Shown here in pieces: positions 52,655 to 52,792 of a stretch of 64,000 bases of DNA. Position numbers and translations under genes: made by a program. The stretch is taken from NCBI GenBank assembly GCA_016708565.1, contig JADJFN010000037.1, positions 1 to 64,000 on the forward strand, in the 5' to 3' direction. Under the pieces are notes generated by a model. The model searched no databases and was not told the origin of the DNA. It saw nothing but the letters and a program-made list of their open reading frames with translations. Positions within the stretch are counted from its first letter, which is position 1; every line of letters begins with the position of its first letter. Source of the stretch: Myxococcales bacterium. Its GTDB lineage: Bacteria; Myxococcota_A; Polyangia; Haliangiales; Haliangiaceae.

Positions 52655-52792
52655 CGTCTTCGGCGGCTATGGTCGCGCTTCCTTCTACAATCCGGAACCG
52701 GAGGTCGGAGGTTCGAATCCTCCTCTCGAGCTCGCTCGAGGTAGCTCAGTGGTAGAGCGCCGGTCTTCAGCTCGACCGCTCTCCGCCACTAT
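52655..52792 (+). ncRNA. Candidate bacterial Y RNA (YrlA-like) with circularly arranged tRNA-like module
   Basis: 5' to 3' order: ACCGG (anticodon-stem 3' strand), AGGTC, canonical T-arm GGAGG-TTCGAAT-CCTCC, 3' acceptor TCTCGAG, tetraloop CTCG, 5' acceptor CTCGAGG, TA, D-arm GCTC-AGTGGTA-GAGC, G, CCGGT (anticodon-stem 5' strand). Flanking complementary helices GGTCG/CGACC and GGCGG/CCGCC. Confidence 0.45.

What the first reader, a model, noticed from the sequence alone, without database searches (positions are those of the whole stretch)
52655..52792. Circularly arranged tRNA-like module: candidate YrlA-type bacterial Y RNA
The intergenic region has every tRNA element except an anticodon arm, in permuted order. 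The anticodon-stem 3' strand ACCGG is followed by variable loop AGGTC, a canonical T-arm (GGAGG TTCGAAT CCTCC) and the 3' acceptor TCTCGAG. A CTCG tetraloop then leads into the 5' acceptor CTCGAGG and a canonical D-arm (TA GCTC AGTGGTA GAGC). The anticodon-stem 5' strand CCGGT closes the module. The acceptor stem is capped by the tetraloop. The strands CCGGT/ACCGG pair and open onto further complementary segments (GGTCG/CGACC, GGCGG/CCGCC) in the flanks. This is the architecture reported for bacterial Y RNAs (YrlA), which are encoded next to rsr (Ro60) genes. The upstream gene would then be the Rsr-like partner. Alternatively it is a rearranged tRNA pseudogene or integrase att remnant.
Basis: partly seen in the sequence, partly recalled or inferred. 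Interest (0 to 1): 0.8.

Follow-up and report, generated by a model that had tools for sequence, protein, structure and literature searches.

The report
tRNA-like RNA paired with TerD-family protein
The element is a real, conserved 126-base structured RNA with a built-in tRNA look-alike; it belongs to a widespread RNA family, absent from Rfam 15, that always sits beside one large uncharacterised protein, much as bacterial Y RNAs sit beside Ro60, but neither the RNA stem nor the protein is the known one.

Summary
Window 52662-52787 (+) folds into two outer helices (P1, P2) that carry a permuted tRNA-like domain: anticodon-stem analogue, V loop, T arm, capped 7-bp acceptor hairpin, D arm.

A covariance model built only from seven distant relatives finds it end to end (112.5 bits, E 7.5e-31), the only hit in the 64 kb. 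All helices show compensatory changes.

It is not a YrlA member. Rfam YrlA matches only the tRNA-like core (35.6 bits, gathering score 69), and the Rsr-binding stem and motif are absent.

The stem belongs to a different RNA family: P1, CUA/YUUU internal loop, P2, loop UCCUUCUA...YAG. That family lies on the same strand next to the ~700-aa 'TerD family' gene in 81 of 83 loci across many phyla and in a phage. Most copies are 60-70 nt; some lineages, including this one, carry the tRNA domain in the apical loop.

A RING-bearing homologue sits behind a sigma-54 promoter beside rtcR. Most likely this is a Y-RNA-like ribonucleoprotein with a non-Ro60 partner.

The parts
52662..52787 (+). Whole structured RNA (126 nt): the tRNA-domain-bearing member of the RNA family linked to the TerD-family protein
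   Evidence: Leave-out covariance model R2 gives 112.5 bits, E 7.5e-31, full length, and is the only hit in the window. The MFE fold equals the consensus structure. Homology with L001 and L005 ends at 52789-52794.
52662..52666 (+). P1 5' strand GGCGG; pairs with 52783-52787 (CCGCC)
   Evidence: 11/11 paired at all 5 positions, 3 positions with double changes. In short forms, 4 of 6 P1 pairs have double changes.
52667..52669 (+). Invariant 5' side of the internal loop, CUA; opposite CUCU at 52779-52782
   Evidence: GGCUAU is invariant in the seed alignment and nearly so in the tRNA-bearing forms.
52670..52679 (+). P2 5' strand U-GGUCGCG-CU; pairs with 52769-52778 (AG-CUCGACC-G), with one C.U mismatch
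   Evidence: All 7 core pairs show double changes among the 11 tRNA-bearing forms. 6 of 7 do so in the short forms. RNAalifold independently adds the U-R and CU/AG closing pairs.
52680..52696 (+). Conserved unpaired segment UCCUUCUAC plus linker AAUCCGGA. CUUCCUUCUA (52678-52687) is the family signature.
   Evidence: CTTCCTTCT is invariant in 22 seeds. It is present in the element beside the gene in 81 of 83 loci, and in the diverged Vibrio copies.
52697..52764 (+). Permuted tRNA-like domain: AC-stem analogue 52697-52701/52760-52764, V loop 52702-52706, T arm 52707-52723, acceptor hairpin 52724-52741 (7 bp, CUCG cap 52731-52734), U8-A9 52742-52743, D arm 52744-52758, G26 52759
   Evidence: Rfam YrlA model positions 23-85, 35.6 bits, E 2.5e-6. 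Double changes: AC stem 4 of 5 pairs, T stem 3 of 5, acceptor 6 of 7, D stem 2 of 4. The nucleotides that form the tRNA elbow and core are present by reading the sequence: U8, A14, G15, G18-G19, G46, C48, U54-U55-C56, A58.
52765..52768 (+). 3' linker CUUC preceding the conserved YAG (here CAG, 52768-52770)
   Evidence: UAG or CAG immediately 5' of the P2 3' strand in all members.
52779..52782 (+). 3' side of the internal loop, CUCU (family consensus NYUU/YUUU before CC)
50500..52632 (+). Partner gene: 710-aa 'TerD family protein' with a helical N-terminal domain (about 1-432), a TerD-like beta-sandwich (about 470-633) and a small C-terminal domain. Its stop codon lies 29 nt before the RNA.

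Best explanation
The element is a stable noncoding RNA that most likely forms a ribonucleoprotein with the product of the gene just upstream (50500-52632).

The family-defining part is the likely protein-binding platform. It consists of P1, the invariant CUA/YUUU internal loop, P2 and the invariant UCCUUCUA...YAG loop.

The apical loop is a variable slot. It is 10-25 nt in most bacteria. In this lineage, several other lineages and one phage it is filled by a YrlA-type permuted tRNA-like domain.

By analogy with Ro60 and Y RNA, the tRNA-like domain would tether the complex to a tRNA-binding factor or nuclease. Alternatively it would make the RNA a substrate of tRNA enzymes (RNase P, the CCA-adding enzyme, modification enzymes) and protect it.

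The system probably acts in RNA surveillance or an RNA-damage response.

Shown here:
- the structure and its covariation;
- membership of the RNA family;
- strict same-strand adjacency to the protein family across phyla;
- the modular insertion of the tRNA domain.

Inferred, not shown: physical binding, the role of the tRNA domain, and the cellular process.
For: 1. Linkage. The signature occurs in 81 of 83 loci that encode the protein.
- 145 R1 hits lie on the gene's strand: 129 of them within 500 nt upstream in 73 loci, most of the rest immediately downstream.
- Loci found through the RNA alone also carry the gene directly upstream on the same strand (L128, L150).
- Homology between the window and L001/L005 covers only the gene plus the RNA, 50481-52794. 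Flanking genes differ.

2. Structure.
- Short forms: 97.6% of cells paired, 10 of 13 pairs with double changes, covariation 0.871 against 0.238 in shuffles (0 of 500) and at most 0.147 when slid. RNAalifold agrees.
- tRNA-bearing forms: 96.4% paired, with double changes in every helix.
- Leave-out model: E 7.5e-31.

3. Trans-acting RNA rather than a leader.
- The RNA is 3' of the gene here and in L001, L003-L005, L011, L014, L128, L150 and phage Weasels2.
- Copy number is 1-6 tandem copies.
- In Vibrio, two copies lie between the gene's own terminator and a second terminator.

4. Parallels with Ro60 and Y RNA.
- The tRNA module matches the YrlA order.
- Bacterial Y RNAs are likewise encoded within a few kb of rsr on the same strand, often in several copies (PMC4201824).
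- A RING-bearing homologue in Variovorax, with two RNA copies downstream, sits 58 nt behind a perfect sigma-54 consensus next to rtcR, the activator of RNA-repair operons.
- The phage Weasels2 homologue, with a tRNA-bearing RNA, lies inside the phage tRNA cluster. The Ro-like gene of Gordonia phage Boopy is placed the same way.
Against: - There is no direct evidence of transcription, RNA ends or protein binding.
- Foldseek finds nothing. hhalign against a TROVE profile gives 0.14%. Pfam finds nothing in 34 members.
- In Firmicutes the proximal copy abuts the start codon and is embedded in the ribosome-binding region. That fits a cis-regulatory role at least there.
- No promoter or canonical terminator was detected around the window element.
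- The rtcR link was seen in one lineage only (four near-identical Variovorax plasmids).
Confidence: 0.6

Rival explanations
1. It is a cis-acting operator or UTR element of the TerD-family mRNA. The protein, or a ligand, binds the hairpin to control translation or stability of its own message. No separate RNP function exists.
For: In about 70 Firmicutes and other loci the proximal copy ends 1-10 nt (mode 6-9) before the start codon with no Shine-Dalgarno sequence in between. In Paenibacillus a conserved GAGAGGAGGCA precedes a P1-closed hairpin, which is either a full copy or a degenerate one, followed by GUCUUUU and the start codon. That is a split ribosome-binding site.
Against: - In the window and all Myxococcota/Bradymonadales loci, and in L011, L014, L128, L150, Variovorax and phage Weasels2, the RNA lies after the stop codon.
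- Up to six divergent tandem copies occur.
- In Vibrio the copies are separated from the gene by a terminator.
- Brevibacillus has an extra copy 1.8 kb away, beyond two opposite-strand genes.
- A full tRNA-like domain has no obvious use in an operator.
- This reading may be an added role of the proximal copy in Firmicutes rather than an alternative.
Confidence: 0.2
2. It is a genuine YrlA Y RNA that serves a canonical Ro60/Rsr protein encoded elsewhere in the genome. Its position beside the TerD-family gene is incidental.
For: The tRNA-like core hits Rfam YrlA (E 2.5e-6). A bona fide phage YrlA next to a Ro-like gene also scores below the gathering threshold (52.1 bits).
Against: - Only model positions 23-85 align. 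The Rsr-binding stem and the GNCGAAN0-1G motif are absent, whereas the phage YrlA aligns over positions 1-114.
- The stem belongs to a family whose short members have no tRNA domain and track the TerD-family gene.
- On the family model the window scores 112.5 bits and the phage YrlA 44 bits.
- No TROVE gene lies among the 13 likely genes Pfam-scanned between 42281 and 60688, or beside the RNA in the other loci checked.
Confidence: 0.05
3. It is an RNA component of a conflict system, for example an antitoxin-like or decoy RNA array as in type III toxin-antitoxin systems. The protein would be the effector that the RNA holds in check.
For: Tandem RNA copies lie directly upstream of a protein gene on the same strand. 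Homologues occur on plasmids and in phages, including jumbo phages. TerD domains occur in stress and defence contexts (PMC7824862).
Against: - PADLOC gives no hit.
- The copies are diverged paralogues with compensatory changes, not near-identical repeats.
- No nuclease or toxin domain was recognised.
- The gene is chromosomal and single-copy, with unrelated neighbours, in most loci.
Confidence: 0.08
4. It is a rearranged tRNA pseudogene, an integrase att remnant or a circularly permuted tRNA gene.
For: It has tRNA-like T and D arms and partial Rfam tRNA matches (22.9 bits).
Against: - The permuted order, the capped acceptor and the outer helices are conserved with compensatory changes. This holds across Myxococcota, Bradymonadales, a Saprospiraceae MAG, unclassified metagenome lineages and an actinophage.
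- No orthologous locus has an intact tRNA at this place.
- There is no anticodon loop.
- No integrase lies nearby.
Confidence: 0.02

Closest known systems
YrlA-type bacterial Y RNA with Ro60/Rsr (Rfam RF02553; Chen et al. 2014, PMC4201824)
   Same: - Modular RNA: a long stem formed by the 5' and 3' ends plus a permuted tRNA-like domain (AS stem, V loop, T arm, capped acceptor-like hairpin, D arm).
- Encoded beside its presumed protein partner on the same strand, often in several copies.
- Present in phages inside tRNA clusters.
- One homologue lies next to rtcR behind a sigma-54 promoter, as rsr-yrlBA-rtcBA does in Salmonella (PMC7790460 abstract).
- A 7-bp acceptor hairpin as in M. smegmatis YrlA, the one YrlA cleaved by RNase P.
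   Different: - The stem is unrelated: no GNCGAAN0-1G. Instead it has invariant GGCUAU, CUUCCUUCUA, YAG and YUUCC.
- Most family members lack the tRNA domain altogether.
- The score is below the YrlA gathering threshold.
- The partner has no TROVE or vWA signature. It has a TerD-like domain, and in some branches a RING finger.
Ro60/TROVE proteins (PDB 1yvp, 2nvo, 9l5y)
   Same: The best long, low-rmsd structural match of the helical N-terminal domain (240-305 residues at 3.5-4.1 A). The overall layout matches: a helical ring followed by a C-terminal globular domain.
NCBIfam NF041916, MXAN_6230/SCO0854 family RING domain-containing protein
   Same: The only curated family hit (481 bits, model positions 385-768 of 842). 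RING-bearing members in Streptomyces and Variovorax also carry the RNA nearby.
   Different: The window protein scores below the 600-bit cutoff and lacks the RING insert, which is PF14447 at residues 130-156 of the Variovorax homologue.
Autoregulatory mRNA operators that mimic the protein's RNA substrate (thrS operator, ribosomal-protein leaders; from general knowledge)
   Same: In Firmicutes the proximal copy is embedded in the ribosome-binding region of the partner gene.
   Different: Here the RNA is downstream of the gene, and elsewhere it forms separate arrays or its own transcription unit.

Membership tests
YrlA (Rfam RF02553) | Score at or above the curated gathering threshold (69 bits) over the whole model | tested here: not met
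   No hit at gathering threshold. 35.6 bits, model positions 23-85 of 114 only.
YrlA (Chen et al. 2014) | Permuted tRNA-like domain: AS stem, V loop, T arm, acceptor-like stem-loop, D arm | tested here: met
   Alignment to the YrlA consensus structure, E 2.5e-6. Covariation in all four helices.
YrlA (Chen et al. 2014) | GNCGAAN0-1G motif near the 5' end within the Rsr-binding stem | tested here: not met
   The motif is defined in PMC4201824. It is absent from 52662-52696. The 5' strand of P2 varies freely among relatives.
YrlA (Chen et al. 2014) | Encoded within 4 kb of, and on the same strand as, a TROVE-domain Ro60 orthologue | tested here: not met
   The adjacent same-strand gene has no TROVE hit. 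None of the 13 likely genes Pfam-scanned between 42281 and 60688 has one. The rest of the genome cannot be seen.
YrlA / Y RNA | Bound by Ro60/Rsr in vivo | not testable with these tools
   Needs co-immunoprecipitation.
RNA family linked to the TerD-family protein (defined here; models R1, R2) | P1, CUA/YUUU internal loop, P2, CUUCCUUCUA...YAG, recognised by a model built without the window or its close relatives | tested here: met
   112.5 bits, E 7.5e-31, positions 1-128 of 128.
RNA family linked to the TerD-family protein | Same-strand adjacency to a homologue of the ~700-aa TerD-family protein | tested here: met
   The stop codon is at 52632 and the RNA starts at 52662.
tRNA (RF00005 / ARAGORN) | Contiguous cloverleaf with an anticodon arm and an open acceptor end | tested here: not met
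   ARAGORN finds 0 genes. RF00005 gives 22.9 bits, below 29, with a forced 31-nt insert. The acceptor is capped and there is no anticodon loop.
Ro60/TROVE protein (PF05731 + vWA) | TROVE domain detectable by sequence profile | tested here: not met
   Pfam at E<=10 on 34 members gives nothing. hhalign against a 24-sequence TROVE alignment gives probability 0.14%.
Ro60/TROVE protein | Ring-shaped HEAT-repeat fold | tested here: inconclusive
Ro60/TROVE protein | C-terminal vWA domain with a MIDAS motif | tested here: not met
TerD (PF02342) | Pfam-level sequence match | tested here: not met
   No Pfam hit. There is fold-level similarity only. The name 'TerD family protein' comes from NCBI annotation.
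NF041916 RING_SCO0854 | Score at or above 600 bits, with the RING domain | tested here: not met
   481.3 bits, best stretch model positions 385-768. No RING hit in Pfam.
Known anti-phage defence systems (PADLOC 2.0) | Any model hit | tested here: not met
   0 families.

The most novel reading that the evidence does not exclude
This is a second, Ro60-independent Y-RNA-like ribonucleoprotein system, widespread in bacteria and present in phages.

- It has about 3,800 protein clusters at 50% identity.
- It spans Bacillota, Myxococcota, Bacteroidota, Chloroflexota, Actinomycetota and Pseudomonadota.
- The protein is a Ro-like helical domain fused to a TerD domain, with a RING finger in some branches.
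- Its dedicated RNA family has an apical loop that has repeatedly acquired a YrlA-type tRNA mimic.
- At least one branch is wired to the RtcR/sigma-54 RNA-damage response.
Probability: 0.5. Interest if true: 0.85.

Novelty: new variant of a known kind. Interest (0 to 1): 0.8.

Why it matters
Bacterial Y RNAs have been found only by looking next to Ro60 genes. Why they mimic tRNA is still an open question.

This locus shows the same tRNA mimic grafted onto a different, strongly conserved stem that tracks a different protein family. That family is large and has no Pfam domain and no known function.

If the pairing is physical, three things follow:
- a role is assigned to thousands of 'TerD family / cytoplasmic protein' genes;
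- a new RNA family is added that Rfam 15 does not hold;
- a natural comparison becomes available, with the same RNA platform with and without the tRNA domain, for testing what the tRNA module does.

The links to rtcR/sigma-54 and to phage tRNA clusters point to RNA-damage surveillance. Culturable hosts are at hand: Brevibacillus, Paenibacillus, Priestia megaterium, Vibrio and Variovorax.

Tried and rejected
- ARAGORN and Rfam at gathering threshold on the window: nothing.
- Rfam E-value scans of short-form loci and of the homologue loci: no family for the core RNA.
- PDB sequence search with the protein profile: only irrelevant weak hits.
- Pfam at E<=10 on 34 members: no TROVE, no TerD.
- PADLOC: nothing.
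- Foldseek against PDB with the N-terminal model: nothing significant.
- hhalign against a TROVE profile built from a phage Ro-like protein and its homologues: probability 0.14%.
Only 2 of the 120 loci fetched were clear members, and 2 more were divergent variants.
- Promoter and terminator scans of the window and of three Firmicutes or other loci: uninformative.
- A possible extra helix between the invariant CC and a GG in the apical loop: GG is enriched (55 of 113 loops against about 25 expected) but not universal, so it was not adopted.
- Folding energy compared with shuffles: not significant in this GC-rich context.
- Literature searches returned nothing relevant. The terms were MXAN_6230/SCO0854, TerD + RNA motif, TROVE + TerD, TerD + tRNA-like, and the signature sequence.
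- Model R2 missed the diverged Vibrio copies, which a plain motif search then found.

Full report
**1. What is in the sequence**

Every named segment is there, in the stated order.

ARAGORN calls no tRNA in the 64 kb. No Rfam family reaches its gathering score.

A permissive Rfam scan of 52550-52900 gives one clear match. YrlA (RF02553) scores 35.6 bits, E 2.5e-6. The match covers window 52699-52762 and model positions 23-85 of 114, which is exactly the tRNA-like core. The terminal stem of the model does not align.

The tRNA model scores 22.9 bits, below its threshold of 29, and only by forcing a 31-nt insert.

**2. The neighbouring gene is not rsr by sequence**

The window is 74.7% G+C. Codon-position G+C fixes the real frames.

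The upstream product has no Pfam hit. Its only curated match is sub-threshold: NCBIfam NF041916, 'MXAN_6230/SCO0854 family RING domain-containing protein', 481 bits against a cutoff of 600.

It has more than 2,600 homologues of about 700 aa. They are still about 50% identical in Brevibacillus, Paenibacillus, Chloroflexota and Bacteroidota, and are named 'TerD family protein' or 'cytoplasmic protein'. An exhaustive profile search counts 3,811 representatives at 50% identity (2,113 at E<=1e-30).

**3. The RNA follows this gene everywhere**

In a Myxococcales MAG (L001, 84% protein identity) the same element follows the gene, with a compensatory GGAGG/CCTCC to GGGGG/CCCCC change in the T stem.

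Eighty genome loci encoding homologues were fetched. A pattern for 'T arm, short gap, D arm' found further tRNA-bearing copies:
- L003, L005 and L004 (two copies);
- L006 (upstream of the gene);
- L075;
- L067, 4.4 kb downstream of the gene.

All share a 5' GGCUAUG...CUUCCUUCUA and a 3' YAG...YUUCC.

Searching for CTTCCTTCTA alone showed that this signature is near-universal, in 81 of 83 loci. In most bacteria it belongs to a 60-70 nt hairpin without any tRNA domain.

These hairpins occur in 1-6 tandem copies, diverged from each other, immediately upstream of the gene on the same strand. L019 has six.

**4. Structure of the core**

Twenty-two diverse short forms align cleanly. The layout is:
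- P1, 6 bp, ending in GG/CC;
- the internal loop CUA / N-YUU;
- P2, 7 bp, extended by a U-R pair and by CU/AG;
- a terminal loop UCCUUCUA-N(11-25)-Y.

On this structure 97.6% of cells are standard pairs, and 10 of 13 pairs show double changes. The covariation score is 0.871, against 0.238 +/- 0.029 in shuffles (0 of 500) and at most 0.147 when the partner is slid. RNAalifold predicts the same helices on its own.

One caveat applies. I chose the 3' ends by requiring P1 complementarity, so P1 is partly circular. P2 is not.

Model R1 finds 145 hits in 1.0 Mb, on the gene's strand. Of these, 129 lie within 500 nt upstream of the gene in 73 loci. Most of the others lie just downstream, or 1.8 kb upstream in Brevibacillus.

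Rfam has no family for these hairpins.

**5. The tRNA-bearing form**

A metagenome scan added L128 and L150, which are AT-rich, and the divergent L166 and L085. In L128 and L150 the homologous gene ends 14-17 nt before the RNA on the same strand.

I aligned 11 tRNA-bearing members by hand. That alignment is structure-guided and so leans towards the structure. In it, 380 of 394 cells pair. Pairs with double changes:

| Helix | Pairs with double changes |
|---|---|
| P1 | 3 of 5 |
| P2 | 7 of 7 |
| Anticodon-stem analogue | 4 of 5 |
| T stem | 3 of 5 |
| Capped acceptor hairpin | 6 of 7 |
| D stem | 2 of 4 |

Examples for the anticodon-stem analogue are ACCGG/CCGGU, CCGGG/CCCGG, AUUUU/AAAGU, ACUAU/AUAGU and GCUGG/CCAGC.

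The caps are stable loops: CUCG, CUUG, UUCG, GAAA and GCAA.

The window copy keeps the nucleotides that build the tRNA elbow and core (the assignment follows standard tRNA numbering).

As an unbiased membership test I built model R2 from seven distant members only. The window and its relatives L001, L003 and L005 were left out. R2 finds window 52662-52787 end to end at 112.5 bits, E 7.5e-31. It finds nothing else in the window.

The minimum-free-energy fold of that stretch equals the consensus. Its energy is not unusual for the base composition (z = -0.58).

On R2 the scores are:

| Sequence | R2 score (bits) |
|---|---|
| Family members with the tRNA domain | 101-126 |
| L026, whose acceptor hairpin is replaced by a long insert | 72 |
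| L067 variant | 67 |
| Short forms | 26-42 |
| A genuine phage YrlA | 44 |

That phage YrlA lies beside a Ro-like gene. It aligns to the whole Rfam YrlA model (positions 1-114, 52.1 bits).

So the two RNA families share the tRNA module but not the stem. The YrlA hallmark GNCGAAN0-1G (PMC4201824) is absent here.

**6. The protein**

AlphaFold2 with 34 homologues gives a confident model (pLDDT 83.4, pTM 0.83). It has a helical N-terminal domain (about 1-432), a beta domain (about 470-633) and a small C-terminal domain.

Against this:
- Foldseek finds nothing;
- a profile-profile comparison with a TROVE alignment is negative, probability 0.14%;
- Pfam is silent for all 34 members.

I therefore call the Ro60 likeness suggestive, not established. 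The vWA domain of Ro60 is clearly replaced by a TerD-like domain.

**7. Context that bears on function**

Neighbours of the gene-RNA pair are not conserved. Between the window and L001 or L005, nucleotide homology starts at the gene and ends 2-7 nt after the RNA. The pair therefore behaves as a self-contained two-part module.

No TROVE, RtcB or nuclease gene was found among the 13 likely genes Pfam-scanned between 42281 and 60688 of the window, or beside the RNA in the other loci checked.

Homologues occur in phages and on plasmids.

*Rhodococcus phage Weasels2.* The homologue lies inside the tRNA gene cluster. It is followed after 168 nt by a tRNA-bearing RNA of this family (59 bits, E 1.6e-15).

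*Variovorax plasmids.* A RING-bearing homologue (PF14447) has this context:
- It is divergent from a four-gene unit that ends in rtcR.
- It is preceded at -58 by a perfect sigma-54 consensus, TGGCACGGGCATTGC, the only match in 8 kb.
- It is followed by two short-form RNAs.

*Streptomyces.* An NF041916 member has a copy upstream.

*Vibrio vulnificus.* Two diverged copies with perfect CUUCCUUCUA lie after the gene. They sit between the gene's own terminator and a second terminator, so they look like a separate transcription unit.

RtcR controls the rsr-yrlBA-rtcBA RNA-repair operon in Salmonella (PMC4201824 and PMC7790460, as listed).

**8. Cis or trans?**

In many Firmicutes the proximal copy ends 1-10 nt before the start codon, without a Shine-Dalgarno sequence in between.

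In Paenibacillus a conserved GAGAGGAGGCA precedes a P1-closed hairpin, which is either a full copy or a degenerate one. GUCUUUU and the start codon follow. This looks like a split ribosome-binding site bridged by the folded RNA. That would let protein binding feed back on translation.

This cannot be the whole story, for four reasons:
- the RNA is 3' of the gene in the window and in many other lineages;
- arrays of up to six copies exist;
- Vibrio separates the RNAs from the gene by a terminator;
- a tRNA domain is not needed for an operator.

**9. Conclusion**

The finding is real, and it is more interesting than a new YrlA. The element is the tRNA-domain-bearing member of an RNA family that I could not find in Rfam 15 or in the searchable literature.

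The family is tightly linked to a large, uncharacterised protein family with a TerD-like domain and a possibly Ro60-like helical domain.

The best explanation is a Y-RNA-like ribonucleoprotein (confidence about 0.6). Binding, processing and cellular role remain to be shown.

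Noticed in passing
L057 4900-4996, L013, L023, L033 and other Paenibacillus loci: A conserved GAGAGGAGGCA lies just 5' of a P1-closed hairpin, which is either a full RNA copy or a degenerate remnant. GUCUUUU and the start codon of the TerD-family gene follow. 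This looks like a split Shine-Dalgarno/start-codon arrangement bridged by the folded RNA.
   Followed up: partly
L067 11402-11527 (Paenibacillus sp. ACRRX) and L206 5076-5201 (Rhodococcus phage Weasels2): A sub-variant of the tRNA-bearing RNA. Plain CUUCCUUCUA is replaced by CUUACUUCGCCU(U/C)(C/U)UAAGCG. That sequence is a hairpin with a 7-nt anticodon-loop-like loop (CUUCUAA or CUCUUAA). The Paenibacillus copy lies 4.4 kb from the gene, next to a WYL/WCX regulator gene.
   Followed up: partly
window 52678-52687 and all family members: The invariant CUUCCUUCUA resembles the 3' tail of Bacillus 16S rRNA (CCUCCUUUCUA, from memory) and an Arg-UCU anticodon loop (CUUCUAA). Whether it mimics either is untested.
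   Followed up: no
L204 (Variovorax sp. SRS16 plasmid 2) 1-5740: rtcR is the last gene of a four-gene minus-strand unit (DUF6283 plus two hypothetical genes). That unit is divergent from the RING-bearing homologue, which has a perfect sigma-54 promoter. No rtcB or rtcA is annotated within 3 kb.
   Followed up: partly
L203 3940-4028 (Gordonia phage Boopy) and related phages: YrlA-like RNAs next to Ro-like genes are annotated as tRNA-Leu, tRNA-Trp or tRNA-Arg in several actinophage records. This is probably a mis-annotation. The Boopy copy scores 52 bits, below the Rfam YrlA gathering score of 69.
   Followed up: partly
window 49177-50439 (-): This 420-aa ORF has no Pfam hit. It has SET-domain-like motifs by eye only. 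It is absent at the same place in the ~93% identical L003, and in L001 it sits beside the gene. L003 in turn has about 630 extra bp between the RNA and the PhzF gene.
   Followed up: partly
L026 4344-4562 (Saprospiraceae MAG): A tRNA-bearing copy in which the acceptor hairpin is replaced by an insert of about 100 nt closed by CAGGUCCCCA/UGGGGCCUG. Two short-form copies follow it.
   Followed up: no
L002 8267-10042 (Brevibacillus brevis): Two ThiF (E1-like) genes lie directly downstream of the TerD-family gene. This is of note because other branches of the protein family carry a RING finger.
   Followed up: no
L070 28-138 (Chloroflexaceae MAG): CRISPR repeats (Rfam CRISPR-DR10) lie about 1.3 kb upstream of the RNA-gene pair.
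   Followed up: no
L207 10175-10813 (Vibrio vulnificus megaplasmid): An 'RNA ligase family protein' gene lies 3 kb downstream of the TerD-family gene and its two RNA copies.
   Followed up: no
L085 2665-2891 and 347-437; L166 7360-7491: More distant homologues (31-37% identity) carry divergent RNA variants. In L085 the D arm is replaced by a second T-arm-like hairpin and the acceptor-like stem is longer.
   Followed up: partly
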